From the NCBI RefSeq assembly GCF_057098645.1, contig NZ_CM169472.1: 64,000 bases of DNA; one strand, written 5' to 3'. Numbering within the stretch: position 1 is the first letter of the stretch; each line of letters begins with the position of its first letter. The notes below the pieces were generated by a model. The model was not told the origin of the DNA. It worked only from the letters and a program-made list of their open reading frames with translations, and ran no database searches. Made by a program: the position numbers and the translations under genes. Below are positions 53,900-56,884 of the stretch, one piece after another.

Positions 53900-53973
53900 T
53901 TGAAAATATGTGAATAACAGTTTCTTAGCAGCTGTATTCAGACAATAAAAAACAACTTACCTCACAAATATAA

Positions 53974-54001
53974 AAGGTCATGATTACTTTTTCATGACCT
54001 T
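53974..54001. promoter_or_regulatory. Perfect 10-bp inverted repeat AAGGTCATGA-N8-TCATGACCTT upstream of the MalX-like gene
   Basis: aaggtcatga ttactttt tcatgacctt, 35 bp before the ATG at 54037. Confidence 0.4.
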
Positions 54002-54036
54002 GAAACTACGCTTATAAAAATCAAGGAGTCTATTAA

Positions 54037-55608
54037 ATGACACAGGAAAAGTCTATAAAGTCACGGGTCTGGGAGTTTTTCCAAAGTTTAGGGAAAACAT
54101 TTATGTTCCCAGTATCATTACTCGCTTTTATGGGACTTCTGTTAGGTATAGGTAGTTCAGTAACCAGCCCCTCAACAATTAATAACTTCCCCTTTTTAGG
54201 TGGTGAGCTTACCCAACTTACATTTGGCTTTATTGCAATGGTAGGTGGCTTCGCATTTACTTATCTACCTGTTATGTTTGCTATTGCAATTCCATTAGGA
54301 ATGGCAAAAAGAAATAAAGCAGTAGGCGCATATTCAGGTTTTGTTGGCTATATGCTAATGAACATGAGTATTAATTATTATCTCACTGTTACCCATCAAC
54401 TTGCCGATTCCGCGACGATGAAGCAGGTTGGTCAATCTGTAGTATTAGGTATTCAAACCTTAGAGATGGGCGTTTTAGGTGGTATCATCGCCGGGGTAAT
54501 AACTTATTTTCTCCACGAACGTTTTCAGGATACTGTTTTACATGATGCCTTTGCCTTCTTTAGCGGTATCCGCTTCGTACCCATCATCACTTCGCTAACA
54601 TTATCGTTAGTAGGCCTGGCCATTCCTTTGCTCTGGACCTATGTTGCAATGGGTATTGCTGGTATTGGCCACATTATTCAAAGTACCAGCGTATTCGGCC
54701 CGTTCCTTTATGGCGTTGGTGTGCTTTTGCTTAAGCCTTTCGGGCTACATCATATCTTGCTGGCAATGGTTCGCTTCACACCTGCGGGTGGAACAGAAAT
54801 TGTCGACGGTCATGAAGTTGCCGGAGCACTTAATATTTTCTATGCAGAATTAAAAGCCGGTCTTCCCTTTAGCCCACATGTTACTGCATTTTTATCACAA
54901 GGCTTTATGCCAACCTTTATGTTTGGTTTGCCTGCTGTGGCTTACGCAATTTATCGTACAGCCAAACCAGAAAATCGTCCTGTAATTAAAGGTTTACTGC
55001 TTTCAGGCGTATTAGTATCTGTTGTTACTGGCATTTCTGAACCAATTGAGTTTTTATTCCTCTTTATTGCTCCTGCGTTATATATATTCCATATTATCAT
55101 GTCCGGTCTGGCCTTAATGGTTATGGCAATCCTGGGCGTGACTATCGGTAATACTGATGGCGGGATTTTAGATCTATTAATATTTGGTATCATGCAGGGT
55201 ACTTCTACTAAATGGTATTTAATACTTCCGGTGGGTATTGTTTGGTTTGCTGTTTATTTCTTTGTTTTCCGTTGGTACATCCTTAAGCATGATATTAAAA
55301 CCCCAGGCCGTGAAGACTCATCTGATGATGCAGCGCAGGCTGTTGCAGCAAATTCAAAAGCACGAGGTAAATCTAAATACGATCATGCTGTGATTTTGAG
55401 TGCGCTTGGCGGAAAAGAAAATATTGATTCACTTGATAACTGTATTACTCGTTTACGTTTGGTAGTGAAAGATATGTCGAAAGTGGATCAAGCCACGTTA
55501 AAGAATGCAGGTGCCCTGTCGGTGGTTGTACTGGATGCTCACAGTGTGCAGGTAATTATTGGCCCGCAAGTTCAAAGTGTGAAAACGGGCATTGAAGCTT
55601 TAATTTAA
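54037..55608 (+). CDS. PTS glucose-family EIICB permease, MalX-like
   Basis: 523-aa ORF; N-terminus VWEFFQSLGKTFMFPVSLL and C-terminal EIIB motif DNCITRLRL resemble E. coli MalX as recalled; visibly AT-rich codon usage. Confidence 0.8.
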   Translation: MTQEKSIKSRVWEFFQSLGKTFMFPVSLLAFMGLLLGIGSSVTSPSTINNFPFLGGELTQLTFGFIAMVGGFAFTYLPVMFAIAIPLGMAKRNKAVGAYSGFVGYMLMNMSINYYLTVTHQLADSATMKQVGQSVVLGIQTLEMGVLGGIIAGVITYFLHERFQDTVLHDAFAFFSGIRFVPIITSLTLSLVGLAIPLLWTYVAMGIAGIGHIIQSTSVFGPFLYGVGVLLLKPFGLHHILLAMVRFTPAGGTEIVDGHEVAGALNIFYAELKAGLPFSPHVTAFLSQGFMPTFMFGLPAVAYAIYRTAKPENRPVIKGLLLSGVLVSVVTGISEPIEFLFLFIAPALYIFHIIMSGLALMVMAILGVTIGNTDGGILDLLIFGIMQGTSTKWYLILPVGIVWFAVYFFVFRWYILKHDIKTPGREDSSDDAAQAVAANSKARGKSKYDHAVILSALGGKENIDSLDNCITRLRLVVKDMSKVDQATLKNAGALSVVVLDAHSVQVIIGPQVQSVKTGIEALI

Positions 55609-55620
55609 CAGGAGTTAAAA

Positions 55621-56793
55621 ATGTTCGATTTCGATAAAATTATCGAGCGTAAAAGCGACAAGTGCCGCAAATGGGATCATCAGTTTGTCTGCTCACGCTT
55701 CGGTGCGGTTGCAGAAGATTTCATCCCTCTTTGGATCGCTGATATGGATTTTACTTCGCCACCAGCTGTAATTGACGGTTTTCAACGGATTGTTGAGCAC
55801 GGAACTTTCGGCTACACCTACGCCTTTAATGAGTTTTATGAGGCCGTGATAGGCTTCCAGCGCGATCGTCACCACGTAAGTATCGAGCAGGATTGGATCA
55901 CTCTAACCTATGGTACTGTCTCAACGCTGCACTATATGGTTCAGGCGTTCTGCCAGCCGGGCGATAGCGTCATGATGAATACGCCAGTCTATGACCCTTT
56001 TGCCATGGCAACAGAGCGTCAGGGGGTTAAAGTGCTGGCAAATCCGTTAAGCATTGCGGATAGCCGTTATCAACTGGATTTTTCGCTGGTTGAAGATCAG
56101 CTTAAACTTCATAAACCTAAACTATGGTTTTTCTGCTCTCCACATAACCCTTCCGGGCGAATCTGGACGGCAGACGAGATTCGCCAGGTTTCGGACTTAT
56201 GTAAACGTTACGGCGTAGTTCTGGTCGTGGATGAAGTCCATGCCGAGCATCTGCTTGAAGGTGAGTTTGTCAGTTGCCTGGCTTCCGGATGTGCCGATCA
56301 CGATAATCTGGTCCTGTTAACCTCGCCTAATAAAGCGTTTAACCTCGGTGGATTGAAAACCTCTTATTCTGTCATTCCAAACGAAAGATTGAGGAAGCGT
56401 TTTCACCAGCGACTGGAAGTGAACTCAATCACTTCGCCGAATATTTTTGGCGTATGGGGAATTACGCTGGCTTATCAGCACGCAAGACCGTGGCTGGATG
56501 CATTGAATATCTATTTACGCAATAACTCCCACTGGCTTAATGATGCCCTCAAGACGCATTTTCCTGAATGGAAAATGATGACACCCGAATCGTCATATCT
56601 GGCATGGGTTGATGTCAGCGAAAGTGGACGCTCCGCAACCGAATGGGTTAATCATTTTGCCCGCAACGCTGGAGTCATTATTGAAGATGGCAGCCATTAT
56701 GTGCAAAACGGTGAAAACTACTTACGTTTTAACTTTGGCACCCAAAGATACTGGCTTGAACAAGCATTAGAAAGGATGCAAAAAATCGCATAA
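55621..56793 (+). CDS. PLP-dependent C-S lyase/aminotransferase, MalY/PatB-like
   Basis: 390-aa ORF; N-terminus MFDFDKIIERKSD and PLP-lysine region LTSPNKAFNLGGLK resemble MalY as recalled. Confidence 0.8.
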   Translation: MFDFDKIIERKSDKCRKWDHQFVCSRFGAVAEDFIPLWIADMDFTSPPAVIDGFQRIVEHGTFGYTYAFNEFYEAVIGFQRDRHHVSIEQDWITLTYGTVSTLHYMVQAFCQPGDSVMMNTPVYDPFAMATERQGVKVLANPLSIADSRYQLDFSLVEDQLKLHKPKLWFFCSPHNPSGRIWTADEIRQVSDLCKRYGVVLVVDEVHAEHLLEGEFVSCLASGCADHDNLVLLTSPNKAFNLGGLKTSYSVIPNERLRKRFHQRLEVNSITSPNIFGVWGITLAYQHARPWLDALNIYLRNNSHWLNDALKTHFPEWKMMTPESSYLAWVDVSESGRSATEWVNHFARNAGVIIEDGSHYVQNGENYLRFNFGTQRYWLEQALERMQKIA

Positions 56794-56800
56794 ACCACAG

Positions 56801-56829
56801 GGCAGATAATTAATTATCTGCCTTTTTTA
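56801..56829 (+). terminator. Rho-independent terminator after the MalY-like gene
   Basis: ggcagataat ta attatctgcc followed by tttttt. Confidence 0.65.
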
Positions 56830-56884
56830 TTGCCGCCAAAAGAACGAAAAATGAAAGAAAACAAGGATAACAGGAGATAAAACT

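What the first reader, a model, noticed from the sequence alone, without database searches (positions are those of the whole stretch)
53900..56884. AT-rich MalX/MalY-like cassette inserted between kbaY and agaB
Between the kbaY stop (53899) and the agaB RBS (about 56875) lie two co-oriented genes: a 523-aa PTS EIICB permease with the EIIB motif NCITRLR, and a 390-aa PLP C-S lyase. Both resemble E. coli MalX and MalY but are clearly diverged paralogues. The segment is visibly more AT-rich than the flanking aga genes, starts behind a perfect palindrome and ends in a strong terminator, so it looks like a horizontally acquired self-contained module. No MalI-like repressor accompanies it. The substrate (an alpha-glucoside or amino sugar) and whether the lyase has a MalY-like regulatory role are open.
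Basis: partly seen in the sequence, partly recalled or inferred. Interest (0 to 1): 0.6.

Follow-up and report, generated by a model that had tools for sequence, protein, structure and literature searches.

The report
Old aga-operon transporter–lyase module
The two MalX/MalY-like genes are real, but they are a long-resident, uncharacterised end module of the N-acetylgalactosamine (aga) operon shared by many enteric bacteria and lost from most E. coli, not a recent foreign insertion.

Summary
A 523-aa Glc-family PTS EIICB (54037-55608) and a 390-aa PatB/MalY-family PLP lyase (55621-56793) lie after kbaY. They are AT-rich (GC3 0.34 and 0.48; flanks 0.54-0.64), preceded by a 10-bp hairpin and followed by an intrinsic terminator.

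Three corrections. The "agaB" after them is a 5' stub. agaCDI and yraHIJK are missing. The last kbaY codons differ from K-12.

The window is E. coli O145:H28. The same structure occurs in 30 of 5426 complete E. coli genomes, named malX and "MalY/PatB family protein" in RefSeq.

The "horizontally acquired, self-contained cassette" reading is mostly not supported:
- The pair sits directly after kbaY in the aga operons of 24 of 24 informative Enterobacteriaceae, Morganella and Aeromonas species genomes.
- Its synonymous divergence matches the flanking aga genes, with dN/dS of 0.02-0.09.
- Salmonella indica keeps agaB/agaD/agaI remnants behind the same terminator.
- No promoter, regulator, AgaR site or mobility signature of its own was found.

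Most likely it is the AgaR-controlled tail of the agaS-kbaY transcript, feeding the Aga pathway. The substrate is unknown. My inference is a sugar-amino-acid conjugate.

Moderate interest; new variant of a known kind.

The parts
51564..51825 (.). Cluster of AgaR operator-like sites upstream of agaS (the PagaS region). This is the presumed control region for the transcript that runs into the module.
   Evidence: Consensus WRMMTTTCRTTTYRTTTYNYTTKK (recalled from Ray & Larson 2004). All 8 hits of at least 20/24 in the 64-kb window fall here or in the agaR-kbaZ spacer. The same specificity is seen in other genera.
51876..53030 (+). agaS (GalN-6-P deaminase/isomerase), first gene of the PagaS transcription unit.
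   Evidence: ORF; RefSeq annotation. Polarity of an agaS deletion on genes downstream of kbaY is reported in PMC3668189.
53042..53899 (+). kbaY. From 53881 its 3' end differs from K-12, giving the tail GSYKRLR.
53974..54001 (+). Conserved 10-bp stem-loop in the kbaY-EIICB spacer, about 35 nt before the EIICB start. It has no U-tract on the + strand.
   Evidence: Energy -14.9 kcal/mol, z -5.8. Eight of 10 pairs show compensatory changes across 15 Enterobacteriaceae sequences.
54037..55608 (+). Glc-family PTS EIICB permease, 523 aa, with no EIIA domain. EIIB Cys469 lies in NCITRLR; GISEP is at residue 332. RBS AAGGAG at 54024-54029.
   Evidence: dN/dS 0.02-0.07.
55621..56793 (+). PatB/MalY-family PLP-dependent beta-lyase, 390 aa. 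K238 aligns with MalY K233. Y124, N176, D204, H207 and R369 are invariant. RBS CAGGAG 6 nt before the ATG.
   Evidence: dN/dS 0.06-0.09.
56799..56834 (+). Intrinsic terminator (11-bp stem plus T-run) that ends the operon.
   Evidence: The same or an analogous terminator follows the lyase gene in Escherichia, Salmonella, Kluyvera, Citrobacter, Morganella and Aeromonas.
56885..57026 (+). agaB 5' stub (pseudogene, about 47 codons of AgaB). The 116-aa ORF 56885-57235 is an artefact that runs into the LysR gene on the other strand.
57022..57031 (.). Deletion junction. agaB codon ~47 is joined to DNA that lies about 280 nt downstream of agaI in strains with agaBCDI-LysR-MBL. The microhomology is ACAG(G).

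Best explanation
The two genes are the 3' end module of an old form of the aga (N-acetylgalactosamine/galactosamine) operon. They are not an island.

Shown:
- The order kbaY-EIICB-lyase-terminator is conserved across Enterobacteriaceae, Morganella and Aeromonas.
- A composite form, kbaY-EIICB-lyase-agaBCD(I), survives intact in Escherichia sp. MOD1-EC7003 and in Enterobacteriaceae bacterium 89.
- The O145:H28 form is that composite after a roughly 3-kb microhomology deletion that removed the agaB 3' part through agaI.
- Most E. coli have instead lost the pair.
- Both genes are under strong purifying selection.

Inferred: the pair has no promoter or regulator of its own. It is transcribed by read-through from the AgaR-repressed agaS promoter, past a conserved hairpin, to the terminator after the lyase gene.

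Inferred mechanism:
1. The EIICB, using the general EIIA-Glc (Crr), takes up and 6-phosphorylates an amino-sugar-containing compound.
2. The PLP enzyme, whose alpha-carboxylate Arg and PLP Lys are conserved, removes an attached L-amino-acid moiety by beta-elimination. A candidate substrate is GalNAc-O-Ser/Thr from mucin.
3. This releases GalNAc-6-P (or GalN-6-P), which AgaA, AgaS and KbaYZ then degrade.

The operon-module part is well supported. The substrate chemistry is a hypothesis.
For: Synteny: 24 of 24 species-level genomes of Enterobacteriaceae, Morganella and Aeromonas with enough flank have the pair directly after kbaY. So do Salmonella indica, Kluyvera, Morganella and Aeromonas veronii contigs. 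In Aeromonas the aga gene order differs and the spacer is only 38-47 nt.

Composite operons remain intact in L015 and L060. Salmonella indica has agaB'/agaD'/agaI' remnants after the same terminator.

Divergence: dS of EIICB and lyase is 0.06 and 0.14 against another E. coli lineage, 0.19 and 0.43 against Escherichia sp. MOD1, and about 1.9 against Salmonella. Each is within the range of the flanking aga genes. dN/dS is 0.02-0.09.

Control: no + strand promoter-like site in the spacer and no AgaR site of at least 20/24 there, whereas such sites mark PagaS and PagaZ specifically. An agaS deletion is polar on genes after kbaY in E. coli C (PMC3668189). A terminator follows the lyase gene in all genera examined.

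Link to the Aga pathway:
- Citrobacter sp. R56 has agaR|kbaZ-agaA-agaS-kbaY-EIICB-lyase with agaVWEF cleanly absent, so the EIICB is the only transporter in that cluster.
- The standalone Hafnia pair has a 20/24 AgaR-like site with an inverted partner about 250 nt upstream.

Lyase acting on a PTS cargo: relatives 50-54% identical are always PTS-linked, to three different PTS families and twice with peptidases.
- Enterococcus and Aerococcaceae: LicT-type antiterminator, then EIICB, then lyase.
- C. difficile and other clostridia: PRD regulator, EIIA, EIIB, Fru-like EIIC, M24 aminopeptidase, lyase.
- Pelosinus and L. sakei (PMC5845896): a PTS Pfam-annotated as PTS_EIIA_2/PTS_IIB/PTS_EIIC in Pelosinus and described as lactose/cellobiose-specific in L. 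sakei.

Catalytic residues are invariant.
Against: - No expression or phenotype data exist; co-transcription is inferred from sequence only.
- The hairpin in the spacer could attenuate read-through.
- The promoter scan is a crude consensus search.
- The AgaR consensus was recalled from memory. Its hits do validate it internally.
- The Hafnia site scores only 20/24. Such hits occur at about 1.4e-5 per bp in the proteobacterial loci.
- Hafnia, Enterococcus and Aerococcaceae keep the pair without adjacent aga genes, so the sugar need not be GalNAc.
- Citrobacter R56 is a single genome and could simply be decaying.
- The persistent low GC3 in Escherichia, Salmonella and Hafnia is not explained by long vertical residence.
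- No literature in the searchable library links this pair to aga. The key comparative paper, Leyn et al. 2012, could not be read.
- No PLP beta-lyase acting on O-glycosyl-serine is known to me.
Confidence: 0.55

Rival explanations
1. The module belongs to the aga operon, but the EIICB simply imports free galactosamine or N-acetylgalactosamine, as a functional substitute for AgaBCD. The lyase is not a pathway enzyme. It would be a general cysteine/cystathionine C-S lyase or racemase, or a MalY-like protein-protein regulator.
For: The pair and agaBCDI are nearly mutually exclusive:
- The pair alone is present in Kluyvera, Enterobacter, Yokenella, Morganella and Aeromonas.
- agaBCDI alone is present in about 5300 E. 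coli genomes.
- Both are intact only in L015 and L060.
- agaBCDI has decayed in both O145-type E. coli and Salmonella indica.

In Citrobacter R56 the EIICB is the only transporter in the cluster. AgaI, the enzyme partnered with AgaBCD, is itself dispensable (PMC3668189). K-12 MalY is both a C-S lyase and a regulator, and Ls-MalY is a racemase/lyase (PMC5845896).
Against: - The lyase is kept next to the transporter, under dN/dS of 0.06-0.09, across Gamma-proteobacteria and Firmicutes. It is linked to three unrelated PTS families. This argues for a role tied to the PTS cargo.
- The mutual exclusivity in E. coli rests on one deletion event shared by all 30 genomes.
Confidence: 0.25
2. This is the first reader's view: a recently acquired, self-contained AT-rich cassette from a foreign donor, inserted between kbaY and agaB in the O145:H28 lineage.
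For: - GC3 of 0.34 and 0.48 against 0.54-0.64 in the flanks.
- Rarity in E. coli: 30 of 5426 genomes.
- The nearest non-proteobacterial relatives are low-GC Lactobacillales pairs, 64-65% and 50-52% identical.
- The agaB stub is only 91.7% identical to K-12 agaB.
Against: - The same slot is occupied in many genera.
- dS equals that of the flanks.
- Alleles within E. coli are 97% identical and share the same structure.
- Remnants in Salmonella.
- No repeats, integrase or transposase.
- No promoter or regulator of its own.
Confidence: 0.07
3. An isofunctional maltose/glucose MalX-MalY paralogue, as PGAP names it, whose location after kbaY has no functional meaning.
For: It passes the TIGR02004 and NF007509 malX-type cut-offs and is 54% identical to MalX.
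Against: - The lyase is only 31% identical to MalY and is closer to the Firmicute PTS-linked lyases (50-54%).
- No MalI is present.
- Linkage to aga genes is conserved across three families despite rearranged gene order.
- The HMM is labelled 'hypoth_equivalog', so its name is not experimentally anchored for this clade.
Confidence: 0.08
4. A cryptic, decaying remnant with no current function in O145:H28, like the K-12 aga deletion.
For: The neighbouring agaB is a pseudogene and agaCDI are deleted. The locus is a rearrangement hotspot.
Against: Both ORFs are intact in all 30 genomes, with dN/dS of 0.04-0.09 within Escherichia. Catalytic residues are intact.
Confidence: 0.05

Closest known systems
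E. coli K-12 malX-malY operon (MalI regulon)
   Same: Same two-gene order: a Glc-family EIICB without EIIA, then a PatB/MalY-family PLP lyase. EIICB is 54% identical and passes the malX-type HMMs. The PLP Lys and other active-site residues align. The physiological substrate is likewise unknown.
   Different: The lyase is only 31% identical. There is no malI. The pair is embedded at the end of the agaS-kbaY unit instead of standing alone next to a LacI-type repressor. No evidence bears on MalT binding.
AgaBCD-AgaI galactosamine module of the E. coli aga/gam regulon
   Same: It occupies the same operon position, directly after kbaY and transcribed from PagaS. It too is a transporter plus an accessory nitrogen-chemistry enzyme. 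The two modules mostly replace each other across lineages.
   Different: It has a mannose-family EIIB/C/D that needs AgaF, not a Glc-family EIICB. AgaI is a NagB-like deaminase, not a PLP enzyme. GalN uptake by AgaBCD is documented experimentally (PMC3668189), whereas nothing is known for the pair.
LicT/BglG-antiterminator-controlled EIICB-lyase pairs of Enterococcus and Aerococcaceae (uncharacterised)
   Same: Closest relatives outside the Proteobacteria: EIICB 64-65% and lyase 50-52% identical, in the same order.
   Different: They are controlled by an antiterminator (plus an EIIA gene in Enterococcus), have no aga genes nearby, and are low-GC.
PRD-regulator / PTS / M24 aminopeptidase / MalY-type lyase clusters of clostridia, Pelosinus and Lactobacillus sakei (Ls-MalY)
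   Same: The lyase belongs to the same subfamily (51-54% identical) and is again the last gene of a PTS operon.
   Different: The PTS families differ (Fru-like or Lac-type). Peptidases are present. Ls-MalY was characterised only as a racemase/C-S lyase in vitro (PMC5845896).
Bacillus subtilis PatB and other solved C-S beta-lyases (6QP3, 1D2F MalY, 1C7N cystalysin)
   Same: Same fold and family. The best PDB match is PatB, at E 5.6e-80.
   Different: No structure of the PTS-linked subfamily turned up. PatB is a cystathionine/cysteine-conjugate lyase not tied to a PTS.
Salmonella dga operon (D-glucosaminate PTS plus PLP-dependent D-glucosaminate-6-P ammonia-lyase)
   Same: A precedent for the logic proposed here: PTS uptake followed by a PLP lyase acting on the phosphorylated cargo (PMC9529869, seen).
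   Different: Unrelated PTS family and an unrelated PLP enzyme. The substrate is an amino-sugar acid, not a conjugate.

Membership tests
MalX-type Glc-family PTS EIICB (TIGR02004 / NF007509) | EIIC and EIIB domains on one chain, with no EIIA | tested here: met
   PF02378 at residues 19-357 and PF00367 at residues 453-484. The protein is 523 aa with no EIIA match.
MalX-type Glc-family PTS EIICB (TIGR02004 / NF007509) | Score above the curated family cut-off | tested here: met
   736.9 vs 632.2 bits and 725.1 vs 665 bits. The model type is 'hypoth_equivalog', so the substrate name is not secured.
MalX-type Glc-family PTS EIICB (TIGR02004 / NF007509) | Phosphorylatable EIIB cysteine (CITRLR) and the EIIC GI[TS]E motif | tested here: met
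   NCITRLR at residue 468 (Cys469) and GISEP at residue 332.
MalX-type Glc-family PTS EIICB (TIGR02004 / NF007509) | Transport of maltose/glucose via EIIA-Glc | not testable with these tools
   Needs transport assays.
PatB/MalY C-S beta-lyase family (TIGR04350) | Fold-type I PLP enzyme scoring above the family cut-off | tested here: met
   359.5 vs 340 bits. PF00155 at 9.3e-35. Best PDB match is PatB 6QP3.
PatB/MalY C-S beta-lyase family (TIGR04350) | PLP-binding lysine and cofactor/carboxylate-binding residues | tested here: met
   K238 aligns with MalY K233, Y124 with Y121, N176 with N173, D204 with D201, and R369 with R365. All are invariant in 17 sequences. The roles of the MalY residues come from my recollection of Clausen et al. 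2000.
PatB/MalY C-S beta-lyase family (TIGR04350) | C-S lyase activity; for MalY also binding of MalT | not testable with these tools
   Needs enzymology and interaction assays.
malI-malXY regulon | Adjacent divergent LacI-type repressor MalI | tested here: not met
   The neighbours are kbaY and the agaB stub/LysR gene. The LysR-MBL pair also occurs in 33 genomes without the cassette.
aga/gam (AgaR) regulon | Located in an aga transcription unit in the same orientation | tested here: met
   The pair lies directly after kbaY in the window and in 24 of 24 informative species genomes.
aga/gam (AgaR) regulon | AgaR operators controlling the promoter that serves the genes | tested here: inconclusive
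   Strong sites lie upstream of agaS (51564-51825) and none lies in the kbaY-EIICB spacer. Membership therefore depends on unproven read-through. Hafnia has a 20/24 site upstream of its standalone pair.
aga/gam (AgaR) regulon | Induction by GalNAc/GalN and a contribution to their catabolism | not testable with these tools
   Needs expression and growth experiments.
Horizontally acquired genomic islet | Atypical base composition | tested here: met
   GC3 of 0.34 and 0.48 against 0.54-0.64.
Horizontally acquired genomic islet | Mobility genes, flanking direct repeats or a tRNA target | tested here: not met
   No such ORFs. No bounding direct or inverted repeats.
Horizontally acquired genomic islet | Divergence or phylogeny discordant with the flanking core genes (recent arrival) | tested here: not met
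   dS and nucleotide identity of the pair lie within the range of the flanking aga genes in three comparisons. Cross-genus synteny and remnants point the same way.

The most novel reading that the evidence does not exclude
PTS-linked PatB-subfamily lyases, including this aga-embedded one and by extension the enigmatic MalX/MalY pair, may define a general and undescribed catabolic route for glycosylated amino acids and peptides. A PTS permease would import and phosphorylate the sugar of an O- or S-glycosyl amino acid, with peptidases trimming glycopeptides where present. The PLP enzyme would then free the phospho-sugar by beta-elimination, giving pyruvate and ammonia. In the aga operon the cargo would be mucin-derived GalNAc-O-Ser/Thr (Tn antigen). 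That would give enteric bacteria, including STEC O145:H28, direct access to the mucin core.
Probability: 0.15. Interest if true: 0.75.

Novelty: new variant of a known kind. Interest (0 to 1): 0.38.

Why it matters
It is an annotated accessory gene pair found in 0.55% of complete E. coli genomes.

The added value lies in the context. A MalX/MalY-type transporter-lyase pair turns out to be a conserved, purifying-selected end module of the GalNAc operon. It is found across Enterobacteriaceae, Morganella and Aeromonas, and it alternates with the AgaBCDI galactosamine module.

The natural substrate of MalX/MalY-type pairs has been unknown since 1991. The aga linkage narrows the search to compounds that yield GalNAc-6-P or GalN-6-P. 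It also offers natural test strains:
- O145:H28, which has the pair but no AgaBCD.
- Citrobacter sp. R56, which has the pair but no AgaVWEF.

The result also warns against reading low GC as evidence of recent transfer. And it suggests that the PGAP product name "maltose/glucose-specific" is probably too specific for this clade.

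Tried and rejected
- Rfam scan of 53800-57100: only a sub-threshold chance hit (Termite-leu, 25.8 bits against a gathering score of 51) on the hairpin.
- Direct and inverted repeats bounding the cassette: none.
- Sigma-70-like promoter on the + strand in the kbaY-EIICB spacer: none. Total hits were below the shuffle expectation.
- AgaR operator in the spacer: no hit reaches 20/24 anywhere in the scanned interval 53851-57090; the best is 19/24, after the lyase terminator at 56837-56860. 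That is borderline (12 such hits in the window) and only partly conserved in Escherichia sp. MOD1.
- The idea that the hairpin is a LicT-type RAT/terminator left over from a Firmicute ancestor: no U-tract on the + strand and no resemblance to RAT. Dropped.
- Remnant of the pair in K-12, in the kbaY-agaB or agaI-yraH spacers: none found at word size 7.
- LysR as regulator of the pair: rejected, because LysR-MBL occurs in 33 genomes without the pair and is divergently paired with the MBL gene.
- Literature: no paper in the held library links malX/malY-like genes to aga, and none of the O145 genomics papers checked mentions the locus. One further query failed on a syntax error. Leyn et al. 2012 (AgaR regulon reconstruction) is not held.
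- Structure prediction was not run. The tools return no coordinates, so active-site geometry could not have been analysed.

Full report
**1. Observation**

The window is an E. coli O145:H28-lineage chromosome. Positions 53700-57300 match RM9872 and about 20 other O145 genomes at 100%. Positions 44700-64000 differ from RM9872 at 6 of 19,301 bases.

- The EIICB has Pfam PTS_EIIC and PTS_EIIB domains, Cys469 in NCITRLR, and passes the curated malX-type NCBIfam cut-offs.
- The lyase has Aminotran_1_2 and passes TIGR04350, the PatB-family C-S lyase model.
- Identity to K-12 MalX is 54% and to MalY 31%.
- GC falls to 0.38-0.44 over the EIICB gene and 0.46-0.49 over the lyase gene, against 0.54-0.58 in the flanks. 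GC3 is 0.34 and 0.48 against 0.54-0.64.
- The palindrome at 53974-54001 and the terminator at 56799-56834 are real and fold far better than shuffled sequence.

**2. Corrections to the anatomy**

I compared the window with K-12.
- Homology stops at 53880, 22 nt before the K-12 kbaY stop, so the KbaY tail differs.
- Homology resumes for only 156 nt (56876-57031, 91.7% identity), which is the 5' end of agaB.
- It then resumes at 59175, in rsmI.

RefSeq annotates the stub as a pseudogene. agaC, agaD, agaI and the yraHIJK fimbrial genes are absent. A LysR regulator gene (57076-58020, minus strand) and an MBL-fold hydrolase gene (58102-59058) sit there instead.

The LysR-MBL pair is independent of the cassette. 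It occurs in 63 complete E. coli genomes, and 33 of them have intact agaBCDI and no cassette.

Comparison with one such genome places the deletion junction at about 57025. It has ACAG(G) microhomology and joins agaB codon ~47 to DNA about 280 nt downstream of agaI.

**3. Distribution in E. coli**

The cassette is present in 30 of 5426 complete genomes, always at this locus and always with the same agaB stub/LysR junction. Twenty-seven are about 100% identical (O145:H28 and relatives) and three are about 97%. It is annotated as malX and "MalY/PatB family protein". There are no bounding repeats or mobility genes.

**4. The decisive context**

Homologues of the lyase form an orthologous series:

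| Taxon | Identity to the window lyase |
|---|---|
| Escherichia | 94-97% |
| Salmonella enterica subsp. indica / salamae | 84% |
| Kluyvera, Citrobacter, Yokenella, Enterobacter | 78-83% |
| Morganella | 66% |
| Hafnia | 64% |
| Aeromonas | 58% |
| Firmicutes | 50-54% |

I fetched contigs and ran a scan over one genome per species. I then mapped the loci with the aga proteins.
- In all 24 Enterobacteriaceae, Morganella and Aeromonas species genomes with enough flank, the EIICB-lyase pair follows kbaY directly in the aga operon.
- In Aeromonas the aga gene order is different (kbaZ-agaS-agaVWEF-agaA-kbaY-EIICB-lyase) and the kbaY-EIICB spacer is only 38-47 nt.
- Escherichia sp. MOD1-EC7003 and Enterobacteriaceae bacterium 89 carry the composite kbaY-EIICB-lyase-agaBCD(I).
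- Salmonella indica has, behind the same GGCAGATAA...TTATCTGCC terminator, an agaB 5' stub, the 3' third of agaD and a 3' piece of agaI.

The composite order therefore predates the Escherichia-Salmonella split, or at least exists in both lineages. O145-type E. coli and Salmonella indica lost agaBCDI by different deletions. Ordinary E. coli lost the pair.

**5. Age**

Synonymous divergence of the pair equals that of its neighbours in three comparisons.

| Comparison | dS EIICB | dS lyase | dS flanking aga genes |
|---|---|---|---|
| E. coli 2012C-4221 | 0.06 | 0.14 | 0.03-0.16 |
| Escherichia sp. MOD1 | 0.19 | 0.43 | 0.18-0.61 |
| Salmonella indica | 1.9 | 1.85 | 0.8-2.3 |

dN/dS is 0.02-0.09 throughout. 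Nucleotide identities tell the same story.

So the AT-richness is real but is not evidence of a recent arrival. The low GC3 is shared by the Escherichia, Salmonella and Hafnia orthologues. It is absent from the Enterobacter, Yokenella, Morganella morganii and Aeromonas lacus orthologues. I cannot explain why it persists.

**6. Regulation (inferred)**

I recalled the AgaR operator consensus from Ray & Larson 2004. In the whole 64-kb window it hits at 20/24 or better only in the agaR-kbaZ spacer and upstream of agaS. It behaves the same way in other genera, which validates it internally.
- The kbaY-EIICB spacer has no such site and no + strand promoter-like match.
- In E. coli C an agaS deletion is polar on the genes after kbaY (PMC3668189).
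- The lyase gene is followed by an intrinsic terminator in every genus examined.

The simplest reading is a single AgaR-controlled transcript: PagaS-agaS-kbaY-EIICB-lyase-terminator. That explains why no MalI-like repressor is present.

The "perfect palindrome" is a conserved stem-loop. Across 15 Enterobacteriaceae sequences, 8 of its 10 pairs show compensatory changes. K-12 has an analogous hairpin 33 nt after kbaY. It may tune read-through or mRNA stability. It is not a cassette boundary.

**7. Function**

Shown:
- The active-site residues of the lyase are invariant. K238 aligns with MalY K233, and R369 with the alpha-carboxylate Arg. Its substrate therefore probably carries a free L-alpha-amino-acid moiety.
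- Citrobacter sp. R56 has a cluster agaR|kbaZ-agaA-agaS-kbaY-EIICB-lyase from which agaVWEF is cleanly missing. The EIICB is the only transporter there.
- The unlinked Hafnia pair has a 20/24 AgaR-like site, with an inverted partner, about 250 nt upstream. The background rate is about 1.4e-5 per bp in the proteobacterial loci.
- Lyases 50-54% identical are always the last gene of a PTS operon, and the PTS family varies:
  - A Glc-type EIICB behind a LicT antiterminator in Enterococcus and Aerococcaceae.
  - A Fru-like PTS plus an M24 aminopeptidase behind a PRD regulator in C. difficile and about 10 other clostridia.
  - A PTS annotated PTS_EIIA_2/PTS_IIB/PTS_EIIC by Pfam, plus peptidases, in Pelosinus, and a lactose/cellobiose-specific PTS plus aminopeptidases in L. 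sakei (PMC5845896).

Inferred: the lyase acts on the amino-acid part of a PTS-imported sugar-amino-acid conjugate. In the aga operon the phospho-sugar released would be GalNAc-6-P or GalN-6-P. GalNAc-O-Ser/Thr from mucin is the obvious candidate. This is a hypothesis without direct support.

The main rival is that the EIICB just imports free GalN or GalNAc, replacing AgaBCD, and that the lyase has a side role.

**8. Comparison with known systems, and novelty**

The closest known system is malXY. The architecture and families are the same, and the family tests are met. The MalI test fails and the lyase is distant, so this is not the malXY operon.

The module works in the place of AgaBCDI, but with unrelated proteins.

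I found no publication on an aga-embedded MalX/PatB-type pair in the searchable library. The comparative AgaR-regulon paper could not be read, so prior mention cannot be excluded.

Verdict:
- The horizontal-insertion interpretation is largely wrong.
- The object is a new variant (in context and regulon) of a known kind.
- Interest is moderate, mainly because it makes the old question of what MalX/MalY-type pairs do experimentally approachable.

Noticed in passing
window 57076-59058: A divergent LysR regulator gene and a gene for an MBL-fold hydrolase replace the yraHIJK fimbrial operon between the aga region and rsmI. The hydrolase scores 203 bits against the AidB-type N-acyl-homoserine lactonase model, below its cut-off of 360. 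The pair is present in 63 of 5426 complete E. coli genomes. Thirty-three of them have intact agaBCDI and no cassette.
   Followed up: partly
L007 7001-7316 (E. coli 18KM2445; the same in strain MEW): A copy about 80% identical of the lyase 3' end, the terminator and the first ~57 nt of agaB lies downstream of an intact agaBCDI and upstream of a fimbrial operon. This implies a second, unexplained junction type at this locus.
   Followed up: partly
window 53974-54001; L003 8033-8060: The hairpin after kbaY is conserved in position and structure but not in sequence across Enterobacteriaceae, with 8 of 10 pairs covarying. K-12, which lacks the pair, has an analogous hairpin with a TTAA loop (-19.2 kcal/mol) 33 nt after kbaY. 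Its function is unknown.
   Followed up: partly
L024 2445-11173 (Citrobacter sp. R56): This aga cluster lacks agaVWEF: kbaZ is followed after 33 nt by agaA. The MalX-like EIICB is therefore the only transporter in the cluster.
   Followed up: partly
L012 7165-7260; L062 8165-8260 (Hafnia): The standalone EIICB-lyase pair, located between xseA and housekeeping genes, has AgaR-like CTTTC-type sites in inverted orientation about 250 nt upstream (20/24 to the consensus). I did not check whether Hafnia has agaR.
   Followed up: partly
L008 9213-9700 (Salmonella enterica subsp. indica): After the lyase terminator come an agaB 5' stub, agaD codons 158-263 and a 3' piece of agaI. This is decay of the Gam module independent of the E. 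coli O145 deletion.
   Followed up: yes
L045, L042-L054, L063 (clostridia); L014 (Pelosinus): A conserved operon with the order PRD regulator, EIIA, EIIB, EIIC, M24 aminopeptidase, PatB-subfamily lyase. It resembles the cryptic E. coli frv and fry-ypdEF PTS-peptidase operons, whose substrates are also unknown.
   Followed up: partly
window 44932-45396: The yhaV toxin gene of the prlF-yhaV toxin-antitoxin pair carries an internal stop (Gln41 to stop) in this lineage, while prlF looks intact.
   Followed up: partly
window 54037-55608 (annotation in RefSeq records): PGAP names the EIICB "maltose/glucose-specific" through a 'hypoth_equivalog' HMM. Given the conserved aga context, that substrate name is probably over-specific for this clade.
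   Followed up: no
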